Of a DNA stretch of 64,000 nt, positions 38,080-41,372 are shown piece by piece (the stretch's first letter is position 1; every line of letters begins with the position of its first letter). Made by a program: the position numbers and the translations under genes. The notes under the pieces were generated by a model. That model searched no databases and was not told the origin of the DNA. It saw only the letters and a program-made list of their open reading frames with translations. Source of the DNA: a virus (Duplodnaviria > Heunggongvirae > Uroviricota > Caudoviricetes); IMG/VR virus record IMGVR_UViG_2541047873_000001; one strand, 5' to 3'.

Positions 38080-38877
38080 GTGGAAAATACCAAGAACATT
38101 CAATATCGCCTGCGTAACGGCCTGCTGGTGGATGTAAACGATGATATGTCCCTGCCCTTTGCCACCATTGAGCGAACCATCCTTACATACCTGGGTTTAG
38201 ACGAAGAGTTAGATAGTGAGAATGGCATTGCTATCTGGCGTGACGGAAAAACGGGAGTCAGACGTTTTATTACGGCAAGAGGCATTCAGTGCACACAGGA
38301 AGAATTGTTTGAACTGGCGCAGTCTTATGGATGCATCGCGTTAGATCCCCTGCATGACCCAGCCATAGCGCAACAACTCATTCGAGAGCTGTCGCTTTCG
38401 GTCACGCCAATAATCTTCCGCCAGGGAACCTTAACCGGCACATGGCGTGTAGAACGCATCTCTAAATATCAGCCATATAATATCCATTTGAACGGCACTA
38501 TTACTGGTGTGGATCAACCAGTAGCAGGTGAAAACAAAGACCTGGAACTTGCAGTAATGATGGCTGCTTGTCGCGTGCTTGGCCTGGGCAAGCAGATGTT
38601 TATCCATTTCCCAAACGGCGCGGAAGGCGAAGTAGAGCTGATTTCCTGCGACTTTTCCTTAACCTGGATGCTTGATGAATTCCTGGACAAAACAGTATTC
38701 CGTGCTGAAGAACTGGATATGTATGTCACCTCAAGTATTCCTAATGACGTGAAAGTTGAGGCCATCGCTACAGCCAGGGCGAAATGCCGTGCGGCGATTG
38801 CAGAACAGGCCAAAGAAGAACAGTCCGATGAAGTCGCGGCAGATGTGGAAGCAGAGGATGCTGATGCTGACGCCTAA
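38080..38877 (+). CDS. Hypothetical protein with acidic C-terminal tail
   Basis: 265 aa; GTG start; terminator downstream. Confidence 0.4.
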   Translation: MENTKNIQYRLRNGLLVDVNDDMSLPFATIERTILTYLGLDEELDSENGIAIWRDGKTGVRRFITARGIQCTQEELFELAQSYGCIALDPLHDPAIAQQLIRELSLSVTPIIFRQGTLTGTWRVERISKYQPYNIHLNGTITGVDQPVAGENKDLELAVMMAACRVLGLGKQMFIHFPNGAEGEVELISCDFSLTWMLDEFLDKTVFRAEELDMYVTSSIPNDVKVEAIATARAKCRAAIAEQAKEEQSDEVAADVEAEDADADA

Positions 38878-38928
38878 AAGCAAGAAATTAGCTGGCTGAC
38901 AGCAGAAAAAATCATTGAGTGATAGTAG

Positions 38929-38958
38929 GAAGCCCGCTTGGTTGAGCGGGCTTCTTTT
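38929..38958 (+). terminator. Rho-independent terminator
   Basis: gaagcccgcttggttgagcgggcttc hairpin plus a T run. Confidence 0.55.
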
Positions 38959-39338
38959 CAAATATTGGAACCATATAGTTCACGTAGTTTTTCCGCTACT
39001 GAAGATACGGGGATTTCACCAGTTGCAGCCCCCACCGCAAGTTCCACCAGCACGGGAGAATCATATACCTGTATACCGTTACGGCGTAGAAATAGCAGCG
39101 CACTGTTTAGCGCGGTACGCTTATTGGCATCATTGAATATATGCCCTCTCGCTGTAGCCACCAGGTAGGTGGCGGAGACTTCGAAAAGGTCGGTGATCTC
39201 TTCGTAGGCAACTCTGGCCTGAACTCTCCCGATAATGGCCTCTGCCCTACCCGGATCTGACATTCCCGGCAGGCCGCCGTAGCGGTTTATATTCGCATCA
39301 TGAAGCGCAATAAGTTCTTCCGGTGATATATGCCTCAT
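38958..39338 (-). CDS. doc: Doc toxin (Fic/Doc family)
   Basis: 126 aa, near-identical to P1 Doc as remembered ([17 protein letters not shown]...[15 protein letters not shown]). Confidence 0.9.
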
Positions 39339-39559
39339 TATCGGTTAACCAGTTCCTTGTTGGTGGAGTCCAGGGTGTCAAACAGGGATGCAAATTCAGC
39401 ATCCAGCGCCGCTTTTTTGTAGGCTTCGAAAGTAGCCTTGCTGACAATTACTGCTGGCTCACGGCCTCTGCGGGTGATTTCAACCTCTTCCCCTGCTTCA
39501 ACATTATTGAGCACTTCGCTAAGGTTGCCGCGTGCGGTACGGAAGTTAATGGATTGCAT
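39338..39559 (-). CDS. phd: Phd antitoxin
   Basis: [39 protein letters not shown]; ATG at 39559 (the ORF-track start is an upstream GTG); stop overlaps the doc start. Confidence 0.9.
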
Positions 39560-39565
39560 AAACAC

Positions 39566-39592
39566 CTCGTGTACTCGTTATGTGTACGCAAT
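39566..39592. promoter_or_regulatory. Putative Phd/Doc operator (repeated GTGTAC half-sites)
   Basis: cgtgtactcgttatgtgtacgca directly upstream of phd. Confidence 0.4.
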
Positions 39593-39667
39593 TATAGGTT
39601 TTAATGATGCTGAATACCACTTCTTGGTGCCTTAAATCCTCGAGATGCAGTCTTGCAATTGCTGGGA

Positions 39668-40090
39668 TTAAGCAGAATAAGTGGTTGGAATTCTGAGCAG
39701 TAATCCAATCTTGGCTATGTGCTCATATGGCAGCTCTCCGGTTTTACCATCATGTATCGAGGCTATCAGATTCAATTCATGCGCCGCTTTACGAATTTCA
39801 GTTTCTGATGGAACAAGGCGAAAACCGATGGGTAACATTTTGATATAGAAAGGTAATAGTTCGTACTTCACCCGTAACTGTGCTGCCGCATCTTTCAAAT
39901 CATGGATGATTTCTTGTTTTAAGTCAGAGCGGGGATTCGATAGCTTTGCTTGGTTAGACAATAACAGATGCGATATTTCCCCCAACTGTTCCTTGAATGA
40001 AATGTAAGACTCAACCCCCTTGATGATGAGTCGACCTAGGACAAAAACGCTTACTCCAGTGACAACAGTGACAAAAGCAGACGAACTCAT
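39668..40090 (-). CDS. Small membrane-anchored protein of unknown function
   Basis: 140 aa, N-terminal TM helix, somewhat AT-rich; inserted between phd-doc and humD. Confidence 0.4.
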   Translation of the reverse strand: MSSSAFVTVVTGVSVFVLGRLIIKGVESYISFKEQLGEISHLLLSNQAKLSNPRSDLKQEIIHDLKDAAAQLRVKYELLPFYIKMLPIGFRLVPSETEIRKAAHELNLIASIHDGKTGELPYEHIAKIGLLLRIPTTYSA

Positions 40091-40224
40091 TCGCGTACCT
40101 AAAAAGAGAATTATAACCTCATCTTATCTTCAAGTGAGTAACCGCGTCTAATGGGAGGAATCATTTAAATGGCCAGGGCGATATAGGTCCAGTCATGCCT
40201 CTCTATGGTTTCTCTGAAAACAAA

Positions 40225-40614
40225 TCATATAGCAGGACTATCATCAAATTCACCGCCCCTGGCGTCATTGATAATGTGGGTGATCACACCAAAAACAGCA
40301 TTACTGCCCGTGTATCCATCGTCATCCACTGGTAACGCCTCTTTCTTCCCGGTGCTTAAATCCTCCAGGTGCTGGCGCGGATACTTCCTGTATCTCTTTA
40401 TGCGATATTCACCCTCCATAGCGCATATAAGCAGTGAACCATCAACCGGAGTAAGTGAGGAATCAACCACCAGCAAAGCACCTTGCAATATTCCCTCACG
40501 GTGATGGCTGTCTGCCGCCCGCATGAAGTAGGTCGCAGAAGGATGTCTGATTAGTTGCTGATCAAGAGAAATTCGGCTTTCAACATAATCCGCCGCAGGA
40601 GAAGGGAAGCCCAT
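40225..40614 (-). CDS. humD: HumD (UmuD homolog, S24 peptidase-like)
   Basis: 129 aa as in P1 HumD; UmuD-type C-terminal core; LexA box in its promoter. Confidence 0.75.
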   Translation of the reverse strand: MGFPSPAADYVESRISLDQQLIRHPSATYFMRAADSHHREGILQGALLVVDSSLTPVDGSLLICAMEGEYRIKRYRKYPRQHLEDLSTGKKEALPVDDDGYTGSNAVFGVITHIINDARGGEFDDSPAI

Positions 40615-40633
40615 AGCGTTTTACCTCAATAAT

Positions 40634-40653
40634 ACTGTTTATTCATACAGTAT
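40634..40653. promoter_or_regulatory. LexA (SOS) box
   Basis: TACTGTTTATTCATACAGTA fits CTGT-N8-ACAG, 20 bp upstream of the humD start. Confidence 0.65.
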
Positions 40654-40737
40654 ACATTGAAAAGGCATAGTTTGTGAAAGCGGGGTTTGTAGGCGCGCCA
40701 CGCTGGGGGCTAATCACATTTCTCCCCCAGCTTGCCG

Positions 40738-40989
40738 TTATTTTTTTGGTGCATCCTCGTTCTGATACACCGGATCGCTCCCTTTTGGCAACTGGAGGCT
40801 TAACTGCCGGTAGTGCCGTAGCCGTTCCATGAAATAGGCGCGCAGGTTTTCCGGTTGCTCACGGGCCACCTGCTCTGCAATCACAGGTATATTCAGCCGT
40901 TCTTTGTAAGCAACGCCGCTGGCGGCAAGGTCTACGTTCACCTTGTCTCGCTCTTCCTGGCTTTTAGCTGCTATATTTCGATCTGACAC
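40738..40989 (-). CDS. Hypothetical protein
   Basis: 83 aa, upstream of humD on the same strand. Confidence 0.4.
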
Positions 40990-41021
40990 AAGAAACCTCC
41001 AGGAGTTAGTGGATCAGGCAC

Positions 41022-41372
41022 ATGCACAATAACGTTCTCAATGTTAGCCGTTCAATTCAGACAATCAGGGACTGCACCAGTGTGGTGGCATCAATCCCAT
41101 TGCGAAACAGCATAGACGAACTGCAAATTCGTGTATTGAATCCGAATCAGGCTAATAAGCAATTGCGCTTTATTTTGACGCTGAAAAGTGAAACAGAGGG
41201 GATAAAGCACAGCGTAAAAGTGTTTTCTGAGGCCATTCTGCTTAATGGGAAGCTCCGGCATCTGATAAGGCCAGAACGTCAATATCCTGACGTCCTGGCG
41301 CGAGAAAAAGACCTTCTTTCTGAAGTTCAGGATAGGGTGATCGATTTCGTCAAATGCTATCCCCTGCATTGA
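41022..41372 (+). CDS. Hypothetical protein
   Basis: 116 aa; lone rightward ORF with a competing antisense ORF. Confidence 0.3.
   Translation: MHNNVLNVSRSIQTIRDCTSVVASIPLRNSIDELQIRVLNPNQANKQLRFILTLKSETEGIKHSVKVFSEAILLNGKLRHLIRPERQYPDVLAREKDLLSEVQDRVIDFVKCYPLH

What the first reader, a model, noticed from the sequence alone, without database searches (positions are those of the whole stretch)
38958..40653. phd-doc and LexA-controlled humD separated by an inserted membrane-protein gene
phd-doc and humD are near-canonical P1 modules, but between them lies a 140-aa membrane-anchored protein (39668..40090) in somewhat AT-rich DNA with no P1 counterpart that I recall. humD carries a textbook LexA box (TACTGTTTATTCATACAGTA), so the humD operon is SOS-inducible.
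Basis: partly seen in the sequence, partly recalled or inferred. Interest (0 to 1): 0.4.

Follow-up and report, generated by a model that had tools for sequence, protein, structure and literature searches.

The report
D6-type humD–orfX–phd/doc region
This is the known hot–humD–phd/doc region of a D6-like relative of phage P1, and the extra 140-residue membrane-anchored protein in it is an old partner of humD from a large, uncharacterised family found in the accessory-gene slots of many temperate phages and plasmids.

Summary
On the minus strand lie doc (38958-39338), phd (39338-39559), a 140-aa ORF ("orfX", 39668-40090), humD (40225-40614) and a unique LexA box (40633-40652).

- **Already sequenced:** the same gene is syntenic in phage D6 (orf109, "hypothetical protein", 99.2% nt). 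It is also in 34 PLSDB plasmids and 22 of 5,426 complete E. coli genomes.
- **The LexA box is not new:** it is the homologue of the LexA site annotated in P1 and P7.
- **orfX is probably not the insert:** a second, about 70%-diverged D6-like lineage carries hot–LexA box–humD–orfX colinearly and has no phd-doc. So orfX is a long-standing partner of humD, and phd-doc is the mobile cassette.
- **What orfX is:** it has a strongly hydrophobic, highly conserved N-terminal helix that continues into a four-helix bundle (AF2 pLDDT 94). It belongs to a family of about 1,000 clusters with no Pfam, NCBIfam, PADLOC or PDB match. Its promoter-like motif is conserved in five replicon contexts.
- **Where the family sits:** in lambdoid, P2-like and phage-plasmid accessory slots and in IncF plasmids.

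The likeliest function is a prophage-expressed membrane protein for exclusion or defence. That is inferred, not shown. Interest is modest.

The parts
38929..38954 (.). G+C-rich hairpin just after the doc stop codon. The T-run lies on the + strand only, so it is a terminator-like site for the convergent isaA-like gene and only a possible stop for doc transcripts.
   Evidence: RNA fold of -23.4 kcal/mol, z = -3.6, 0 of 200 shuffles as stable. The terminator scan hit the + strand at 38936-38951. The flank 38884-38923 is homologous to the post-orfX region of L045.
38958..39338 (-). doc, the toxin of the phd-doc addiction module (126 aa)
   Evidence: Fic/DOC PF02661, E = 2e-9. 113/126 identical to P1 Doc. 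Annotated as Doc-like toxin in D6 and P1.
39338..39559 (-). phd, the antitoxin (73 aa). Its stop overlaps the doc start (ATGA).
   Evidence: PhdYeFM PF02604, E = 3e-13. 73/73 identical to P1 Phd.
39569..39596 (-). Pphd -10 (TATAAT, 39591-39596) and the operator-like region upstream of phd. This is the left edge of the DNA shared with P1 and with phd-doc cassettes of other plasmids.
   Evidence: Alignment with P1, where Pphd is annotated. P1 homology ends at 39596. Plasmids that hold only phd-doc match 39338-39596.
39597..39667 (-). Spacer between orfX and Pphd, specific to the D6 lineage. No terminator hairpin.
   Evidence: Not homologous to P1 or L045. The fold is no better than shuffles, z = 0.19.
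39668..40090 (-). orfX (D6 orf109): 140 aa, an N-terminal hydrophobic helix continuing into a four-helix bundle. Uncharacterised family, phrog_7512.
   Evidence: ORF. 138/140 identical to D6 orf109. phrog_7512 E = 1e-76 and no Pfam, NCBIfam or PADLOC match. 994 cluster representatives at E <= 1e-3. AF2 pLDDT 94.2. Third-codon-position excess of differences, 25/22/55.
40097..40150 (-). Promoter-like elements and ribosome-binding site of orfX: -35-like TAGACG 40145-40150, -10-like TAAGAT 40121-40126, an alternative perfect TATAAT 40110-40115, and AGG(T) 40097-40101.
   Evidence: TAGAC[GAT]-N17/18-TA[AG]GAT plus AGG is kept upstream of orfX homologues in five replicon contexts whose other flanks are unrelated. 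The strict consensus scan did not call it.
40091..40224 (-). humD-orfX intergenic region with no terminator hairpin. This permits read-through from the LexA-controlled promoter.
   Evidence: Fold is weaker than shuffles, z = +1.5. No terminator-like site. The proximal 75 nt are 79% identical to L045 and the distal part cannot be aligned.
40225..40614 (-). humD: a UmuD'-like protein of 129 aa that starts at the position of the UmuD cleavage product.
   Evidence: Peptidase_S24 PF00717, E = 1e-8. 123/129 identical to P1 HumD and 128/129 to D6.
40633..40652 (.). LexA (SOS) box, TACTGTTTATTCATACAGTA
   Evidence: Unique in the window, 17/20 to consensus, 0 of 100 shuffles. Identical in D6. It is the homologue of the P1 feature 'LexA binding site in the regulatory region of lxr and humD'. 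P7 also annotates LexA here.
40649..40678 (-). Promoter-like site for humD: TTCACA, 18 nt, TATACT. The -10 overlaps the LexA box.
   Evidence: It is the only sigma-70-type consensus hit in 38800-41100, matching 10/12. A TATACT -10 overlapped by a LexA box recurs in L045.
40738..40989 (-). hot: homologue of the DNA polymerase III theta subunit (83 aa), upstream of humD and co-oriented with it.
   Evidence: PF06440, E = 3e-33. 75/83 identical to P1 Hot. Part of the block colinear with L045.

Best explanation
The interval is the hot-humD-orfX-phd-doc segment of a D6-like member of the P1 family of phage-plasmids.

**Shown by sequence**
- humD encodes a ready-processed UmuD'-type subunit. It sits behind a promoter-like site whose -10 is overlapped by a strong LexA box.
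- No terminator separates humD from orfX, or orfX from phd.
- orfX has its own conserved promoter-like motif.
- orfX is colinear with hot and humD in two D6-like lineages that differ by about 30% in sequence. One of those lineages lacks phd-doc.
- phd-doc is a cassette with a sharp boundary at the -10 of its own promoter.

**Inferred**
- In a lysogen, orfX is made at a basal level from its own promoter.
- After DNA damage LexA is cleaved, and read-through from the humD promoter raises humD, orfX and probably phd-doc transcripts.
- orfX is a single-pass inner-membrane protein with N-out, C-in topology. Its transmembrane helix continues rigidly into a cytoplasmic four-helix bundle.
- Relatives sit as self-contained, often opposite-strand accessory genes in lambdoid prophages, P2-like prophages, 48-kb phage-plasmids and IncF plasmids. 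I therefore think orfX most likely acts for the resident element at the membrane, by excluding or aborting infection by other phages or incoming DNA. Its very conserved transmembrane helix would do this by binding a membrane partner or by self-association.

My confidence in the anatomy and evolutionary reading is about 0.85. My confidence in the exclusion/defence function is about 0.35-0.4. The single figure given for this explanation (0.55) blends the two.
For: **Anatomy**
- Gene calls and domain hits.
- LexA box unique and non-random, overlapping a promoter-like -10, and homologous to the annotated P1/P7 sites.
- No hairpins in either intergenic region.

**Synteny**
- D6 carries the same arrangement.
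- L045-L047 align colinearly with window 40977-39676 at 69.7% overall: hot 74%, humD 71%, orfX 78.5%. They have a LexA box (TACTGTATATAAACACAGTA) and no phd-doc.
- phd-doc boundary at 39596.

**orfX is a real gene**
- 994 cluster representatives.
- Third-codon-position excess of differences.
- AF2 pLDDT 94.2, pTM 0.84.

**Own promoter**
- TAGACN-N17/18-TA[AG]GAT plus AGG is kept in five contexts.

**Membrane topology**
- Kyte-Doolittle mean 2.19 over residues 5-23.
- K+R count of 0.12 in the N-flank against 2.6 in the C-flank across 97 members.
- Residues 8-24 are the best-conserved segment of the protein.

**Accessory-gene behaviour**
- Opposite strand between the replication genes and ninB in lambdoid prophages.
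- Opposite strand between the tail-fibre-assembly and sheath genes in P2-like prophages.
- 48-kb IncFII-repA phage-plasmids.
- An IS1-flanked islet of ColV/ColBM plasmids, next to a DpnII/MboI-type nuclease-domain protein.
- Low G+C.
Against: - More distant members lie in ordinary-looking chromosomal neighbourhoods with no conserved partner.
- The orfX promoter motif fell below the threshold of the strict consensus scan.
- The D6/window allele carries R20 and S28 where 93/97 and 95/97 relatives have Q and P. It may be functionally altered or decaying.
- Model coordinates could not be inspected, so burial of the N-terminal helix in a soluble bundle is not strictly excluded.
- The direction of gain or loss in the common ancestor of P1 and D6 is not rooted by an outgroup.
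Confidence: 0.55

Rival explanations
1. orfX is a recent foreign insertion (a moron) dropped into a P1-type humD-phd junction, and it split an originally contiguous humD-phd-doc unit.
For: P1, P7, SJ46, RCS47 and most P1-like plasmids have humD directly followed by phd (span 684 bp). The 638-bp segment has 42% G+C against 49-51% in the flanks. The window's humD and phd-doc are 91-93% identical to P1, while the segment between them has no P1 counterpart.
Against: A phd-doc-less D6-like lineage has humD-orfX colinear with the window and co-diverged from it: humD 71%, orfX 78.5%. phd-doc is itself the widely shared cassette, with a boundary at 39596. In P1 that cassette abuts, and even overlaps, the humD 3' end.
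Confidence: 0.2
2. orfX works with HumD and Hot in the SOS response. It would be a damage-induced membrane protein that slows growth or division or alters membrane potential, in the manner of TisB/DinQ-type SOS membrane peptides, or that tethers a repair factor.
For: It lies downstream of the LexA-controlled humD with no terminator, and this is so in two diverged lineages.
Against: Homologues in 14 other contexts have no humD, no hot and no LexA-like box within 400 nt upstream. orfX keeps its own promoter-like motif. At 140 aa with a folded bundle it is unlike the 20-30-aa SOS toxins.
Confidence: 0.12
3. orfX is a lysis-timing component, either a holin/antiholin-like protein or an inhibitor of lysis.
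For: It is a small protein with one N-terminal hydrophobic helix carried by a phage. SOS-linked expression would coincide with induction.
Against: There is no endolysin, spanin or holin gene nearby. In lambdoid prophages it sits far from the lysis cassette and on the opposite strand. It occurs on non-phage IncF plasmids and on chromosomes. The predicted C-in folded bundle is unlike holins. BFVD gave no holin match with support.
Confidence: 0.05
4. The D6/window allele is a functionless or decaying passenger, maintained only by linkage.
For: It carries R20 and S28 at two of the most invariant family positions, plus a one-residue deletion next to them. All 34 plasmid copies are >=99% identical, so selection cannot be read within the lineage.
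Against: The reading frame is intact and full length in D6, in 34 plasmids and in 22 E. coli genomes. The promoter motif and ribosome-binding site are intact. AF2 folds this allele itself with pLDDT 94.
Confidence: 0.1

Closest known systems
Escherichia phage D6, orf107-orf111 region (NC_050154 / MF356679): hot, humD, orf109, phd, doc
   Same: Same gene order and orientation. The segment 39566-40224 is 99.2% identical, orfX is 138/140 identical, and the LexA box is identical.
   Different: The window has a full-length hot where D6 annotates a 48-aa stump. It lacks pdcA after doc, and its isaA-like gene is only 73% identical. D6 gives orf109 no function.
Phage P1 humD-phd-doc with its LexA site (NC_005856), and P7
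   Same: Homologous LexA box at the same distance from humD. HumD is 95%, Phd 100% and Doc 90% identical. The Pphd -10 and operator region are conserved.
   Different: P1 has 45 bp where the window has 638 bp carrying orfX. P1 has lxr between the LexA box and hot, and the window does not.
A phd-doc-less D6-like lineage (loci L045-L047, from E. coli assemblies)
   Same: hot, LexA box, humD and orfX are colinear with the window. The orfX promoter-like motif is kept, and the post-gene hairpin flank is homologous.
   Different: About 30% nucleotide divergence throughout. The orfX allele has the family-typical Q20 and P28. There is no phd-doc, and a hairpin follows orfX directly.
Prophage-encoded membrane exclusion proteins carried as accessory genes (HK97 gp15, P22 SieA, T4 Imm/Sp, P2 Z/fun locus). 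Named from my own knowledge.
   Same: A small protein with a predicted membrane anchor, carried by temperate elements in accessory slots. These slots include the site between tail-fibre assembly and sheath in P2-like prophages, which from memory is where P2 carries Z/fun.
   Different: No sequence similarity. tblastn against 50,697 phage genomes found only D6. There was no PADLOC hit and no structural match in BFVD. The function is untested.

Membership tests
E. coli-type LexA (SOS) operator | 20-bp palindrome TACTG(TA)5CAGTA with intact CTGT-N8-ACAG | tested here: met
   17/20 to consensus, both half-sites perfect, unique in 64 kb, 0 of 100 shuffles.
E. coli-type LexA (SOS) operator | Placed so that bound LexA occludes a promoter | tested here: inconclusive
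   It overlaps the -10 of the only consensus promoter-like site (TTCACA-18-TATACT) upstream of humD. The promoter itself is not mapped.
E. coli-type LexA (SOS) operator | LexA binds and the gene is derepressed by DNA damage | not testable with these tools
   The only support is that the homologous site is annotated as a LexA site in the P1 and P7 records.
HumD / UmuD'-like (peptidase S24) | S24 domain; starts at the UmuD cleavage site (pre-processed form); close to P1 HumD | tested here: met
   PF00717 E = 1e-8. 123/129 identical to P1 HumD. The alignment to UmuD begins at G25 (UmuD sequence from memory).
Phd-Doc type II toxin-antitoxin module | Phd/YefM antitoxin followed by an overlapping Fic/Doc toxin, behind the Pphd promoter and operator | tested here: met
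   PF02604 and PF02661. 100% and 90% identity to P1. The ATGA overlap is at 39338. The -10 and operator region align with P1's annotated Pphd.
Moron / lysogenic-conversion accessory gene | Present or absent among otherwise related phages, with deviating base composition | tested here: met
   Absent from P1, P7 and most P1-like plasmids, present in 34. 42% G+C against 49-51%.
Moron / lysogenic-conversion accessory gene | Own promoter and own terminator | tested here: inconclusive
   A promoter-like motif is conserved in five contexts but is not mapped. There is no terminator after orfX in the window, whereas a hairpin follows it in L045.
Moron / lysogenic-conversion accessory gene | Transcribed against the surrounding lytic operon in other phages | tested here: met
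   Opposite strand in lambdoid prophages and in P2-like prophages. Not so in the window, where it is co-oriented with humD.
Known superinfection-exclusion or anti-phage defence proteins | Sequence or profile similarity to a described system | tested here: not met
Known superinfection-exclusion or anti-phage defence proteins | Protects the cell against phage infection | not testable with these tools
   Needs plating and DNA-entry assays.
Holins | Membrane protein encoded next to an endolysin or spanin, with a charged C-terminal tail | tested here: not met
   No lysis genes in the neighbourhood. In lambdoid prophages it is several kb from the lysis cassette and on the other strand. The C-terminal part is a folded bundle.

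The most novel reading that the evidence does not exclude
orfX is the first recognised member of a widespread family (about 1,000 clusters at 50% identity) of single-gene, membrane-anchored four-helix-bundle proteins. Temperate phages (lambdoid, P2-like, P1/D6-like, 48-kb phage-plasmids) and IncF plasmids would carry them in their accessory hotspots as a new kind of exclusion or abortive-infection function. In D6-like elements this function would additionally be wired to the SOS response through read-through from the LexA-controlled humD promoter.
Probability: 0.3. Interest if true: 0.6.

Novelty: new member of a known kind. Interest (0 to 1): 0.35.

Why it matters
The humD/LexA and phd-doc parts are textbook P1 biology and add nothing new.

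The useful result concerns the "extra" gene. It is a stable, self-promoted partner of humD in the D6 clade. It also belongs to a large protein family with no annotation in any database, and that family recurs in the accessory slots of several temperate-phage types and in virulence plasmids.

If the gene proves to be an exclusion or defence function, it would add a very compact single-gene system to the catalogue. It would also be carried on phage-plasmids common in clinical and livestock E. coli and Salmonella.

The analysis also corrects the evolutionary reading. In this region the addiction cassette is the mobile piece, not the membrane gene.

Tried and rejected
**Database and structure searches for orfX**
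- Pfam, NCBIfam and PADLOC on orfX and on 97 relatives gave no consistent hit.
- PHROGs gave only phrog_7512, of unknown function.
- A profile search against PDB sequences gave only noise, E >= 0.015.
- Foldseek against BFVD gave nothing at E < 0.6.
- The afdb50 library was unavailable.

**Conserved partner gene**
- Neighbours in 10+ contexts share no family with each other or with orfX.

**HEPN-like nuclease idea**
- Residues R100-x3-H104 suggested it. I rejected it because these residues are not conserved.

**Other checks**
- LexA boxes upstream of homologues elsewhere: none found.
- Rfam scan of 38700-41200: only sub-threshold noise.
- Terminators between humD, orfX and phd: none.
- The search for related loci with the broad alignment failed for lack of a conserved stretch.

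**Literature**
- No paper mentions the protein accessions or the PHROG.
- The D6 genome paper, the P1 genome paper, the HumD paper and Brenes & Laub 2025 are not held.
- The P2 hotspot papers that are held describe the gpA-gpQ locus, not the G/FI site. The Z/fun comparison therefore rests on memory.
Full report
**1. What is in the sequence**

All features lie on the minus strand:
- doc, 38958-39338.
- phd, 39338-39559. Its stop overlaps the doc start.
- A 140-codon ORF, 39668-40090, called orfX here.
- humD, 40225-40614.
- hot, 40738-40989.

Pfam confirms Fic/DOC, PhdYeFM, Peptidase_S24 and DNA_pol3_theta for the four known genes. It gives nothing for orfX.

Against P1 proteins, Phd is 73/73 identical, Doc 113/126 and HumD 123/129.

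The 20-mer TACTGTTTATTCATACAGTA lies at 40633-40652. It matches the LexA consensus at 17/20 positions with both half-sites intact. It is the only such site in the 64-kb window, and none appeared in 100 shuffles. It overlaps the -10 of the only sigma-70-like consensus hit in the region, TTCACA-18-TATACT at 40678-40649.

The orfX-bearing DNA has 42% G+C, against 49-51% for the flanking genes.

**2. Comparison with P1, P7 and D6**

megablast against 50,697 phage records shows that P1, P7, SJ46, RCS47 and others match humD and phd-doc but not the DNA between them. Only phage D6 covers it: 99.2% identity over 39566-40224, annotated as orf109, "hypothetical protein".

P1 homology covers 38968-39596 and 40235-40667. 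So 638 bp of the window replace 45 bp of P1.

The P1 record annotates a "LexA binding site in the regulatory region of lxr and humD" at the homologous position, and P7 annotates LexA there too. P1's lxr gene is absent from the window and from D6.

The full humD-orfX-phd arrangement occurs in:
- 34 of 72,556 PLSDB plasmids.
- 22 of 5,426 complete E. coli genomes, always on plasmids, the 20 listed ranging from about 75 to 120 kb and mostly about 90 kb.

The window is therefore a D6-like phage-plasmid. It is not D6 itself: hot is intact, pdcA is missing, and the isaA-like gene is only 73% identical.

**3. Which piece is the insert?**

A 71%-identical orfX allele (P0007) lies in a second D6-like lineage, loci L045-L047. 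These loci also carry cre, c1, dUTPase and Tad2-like genes. Their gene order is hot, LexA box (TACTGTATATAAACACAGTA), humD, orfX, a hairpin, and then convergent genes. There is no phd-doc.

Window 40977-39676 aligns colinearly with L045 at 69.7%:

| Segment | Identity to L045 |
|---|---|
| hot | 74% |
| humD | 71% |
| orfX | 78.5% |
| Last 75 nt before orfX | 79% |
| Rest of the humD-orfX spacer | cannot be aligned |

Homology resumes after doc, at 38923-38884.

Many other plasmids match only 39338-39596, that is, phd up to the -10 of Pphd. In P1 the shared cassette abuts the humD 3' end.

The simplest reading is that orfX is a long-standing partner of humD in the D6 clade, and that phd-doc is the mobile cassette. 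It landed after orfX in the D6/window lineage and directly after humD in the P1 lineage. The alternative is that P1 lost orfX. Without an outgroup, the state in the common ancestor stays open.

**4. Transcription logic (inferred)**

Neither the humD-orfX spacer nor the orfX-phd spacer folds better than shuffled sequence, and no terminator-like site is found there. A strong hairpin follows doc at 38929-38954, but its T-run is on the other strand.

Upstream of orfX, the motif TAGAC[GAT]-N17/18-TA[AG]GAT followed by AGG and the ATG is preserved in five settings. These are the window, L045, 48-kb phage-plasmids, ColBM plasmids and pJIE186-2, and their remaining flanks are unrelated. In the window, the -35-like element is at 40145-40150 and the -10-like element at 40121-40126. 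A perfect TATAAT also lies at 40110-40115.

I infer basal expression from this promoter, plus SOS-induced read-through from the humD promoter into orfX and phd-doc. Homologues elsewhere have no LexA-like box within 400 nt. SOS control is therefore a property of the D6 context and not of the family.

**5. What orfX is**

*It is a real gene.*
- Differences from three homologues are concentrated at third codon positions, for example 25/22/55.
- A profile search of 1.84 billion cluster representatives finds 994 relatives at E <= 1e-3 and 226 at E <= 1e-10. Nearly all are 135-155 aa long.

*It matches no described family.*
- Neither orfX nor 97 relatives hit any Pfam, NCBIfam or PADLOC family consistently. 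The family has no PDB relative by sequence.
- PHROGs places it in phrog_7512, of unknown function.

*Predicted structure.*
- AlphaFold2 with the 97-sequence alignment gives pLDDT 94.2 and pTM 0.84. There is one long helix (residues 2-45) and helices at 59-77, 96-113 and 121-132.
- BFVD gives nothing.

*Membrane anchor and topology.*
- Residues 5-23 have a Kyte-Doolittle mean of 2.19.
- Across the family, the N-terminal flank has 0.12 K+R and the C-terminal flank 2.6. This predicts N-out, C-in.
- The hydrophobic helix is the best-conserved part of the protein: T8, G12, V13, V15, F16, V17, G/S19, Q20, K24, E27, P28. This argues for a specific interaction within the membrane rather than a mere anchor.
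- No conserved polar constellation suggests an enzyme.
- The D6/window allele is odd. It has R20 and S28 where 93/97 and 95/97 relatives have Q and P.

**6. Where the family lives**

- A 43%-identical member sits in lambdoid prophages of Atlantibacter and relatives. It lies between the replication genes (lambda-P-like or DnaB) and ninB, on the strand opposite to the early operon.
- Members 31-39% identical sit in P2-like prophages, between the tail-fibre-assembly gene and the sheath gene, again on the opposite strand. From memory, that is the site where P2 carries the exclusion gene Z/fun. The papers I could read describe only the other P2 hotspot.
- A 73%-identical member lies in 48-kb IncFII-repA phage-plasmids, beside an HTH gene and a Gp49/HTH toxin-antitoxin pair.
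- 311 plasmids, mostly conjugative (264 of all 345 matching records), match the coding region at 60-80% identity. In pAPEC-O1-ColBM the gene lies in an IS1-flanked islet with a DpnII/MboI-type nuclease-domain protein.
- More distant members occur singly in chromosomes, near toxin-antitoxin genes, a CHAT protease, a DUF5677 protein or a type IV secretion cluster. No partner recurs.
- Among cultured phage genomes, only D6 encodes it.

**7. Explanation and rivals**

The best-supported account is a self-promoted accessory membrane protein that serves the resident element. It most plausibly excludes or aborts infection by other phages or incoming DNA. Its very conserved transmembrane helix would engage a membrane partner or self-associate, with the four-helix bundle on the cytoplasmic side.

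This rests on architecture and on genomic behaviour only. I put it at about 0.35-0.4.

| Rival | Probability |
|---|---|
| A role in the SOS response alongside HumD | 0.12 |
| A decaying passenger allele | 0.1 |
| A lysis-timing protein | 0.05 |

Evidence for and against each rival is in the structured fields.

**8. Verdict**

The LexA-humD and phd-doc parts are known biology. The gene arrangement is already in GenBank as phage D6.

Three points are worth keeping:
- The corrected history: orfX belongs with humD, and phd-doc is the mobile cassette.
- orfX has a conserved promoter-like motif of its own.
- orfX belongs to a large, entirely unannotated family that recurs in accessory slots of several temperate-phage types.

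Interest is modest (0.35). It would rise to about 0.6 if a protective phenotype were shown.

Noticed in passing
window 40738-40989 (-): hot (homologue of the DNA polymerase III theta subunit) is full length here at 83 aa, whereas the D6 record annotates only a 48-aa truncated version. The window is therefore not D6 itself.
   Followed up: partly
window 38878-38957: pdcA, which follows doc in both P1 and D6, is absent. doc is followed directly by a hairpin and the convergent isaA-like gene (38080-38877, +), which is only 73% identical to its D6 counterpart.
   Followed up: partly
window 40990-41372: P1's LexA-regulated lxr gene is missing in the window and in D6. Beyond hot lies a divergent 116-aa ORF (41022-41372, +) that belongs to phrog_2594 and has no Pfam, NCBIfam or PADLOC match.
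   Followed up: no
window 39668-40090 (residues 20 and 28 of orfX): The D6/window allele has R20 and S28, plus a one-residue deletion nearby. In the family, 93/97 and 95/97 members have Q and P at these positions, including the allele of the phd-doc-less D6-like lineage.
   Followed up: partly
L003 (pAPEC-O1-ColBM, NC_009837 135927-140212): The IncF-plasmid homologue lies in an IS1-flanked islet. Its neighbours are a 500-aa protein with no family hit, a similarly built 159-aa protein (N-terminal hydrophobic helix plus helical domain), and a 220-aa protein with a DpnII/MboI-type nuclease domain that hits PADLOC pAgo-associated models. The islet may be an undescribed defence islet.
   Followed up: partly
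L003 and L005, about 60-90 nt upstream of the orfX homologues: The F-plasmid copies carry an inverted repeat, GTACAG-N6-CTGTAC, immediately upstream of the -35-like TAGACA. It could be an operator. It is not a LexA box.
   Followed up: no
protein P0015 (Logan assembly): An orfX homologue whose C-terminal part is replaced by a tail resembling the maturase of a group II intron. This suggests an intron insertion into the gene.
   Followed up: no
L030 5481-5675 (IMG/VR D6-like contig): In this D6-like contig humD appears to be cut to 64 codons, while the downstream orfX is intact.
   Followed up: no
L041 5512-5886 and 6690-7439: In the P2-like prophage slot, the family member is flanked by two more opposite-strand ORFs of 124 and 249 aa. 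Both have hydrophobic N-termini and no Pfam or PADLOC hit.
   Followed up: partly
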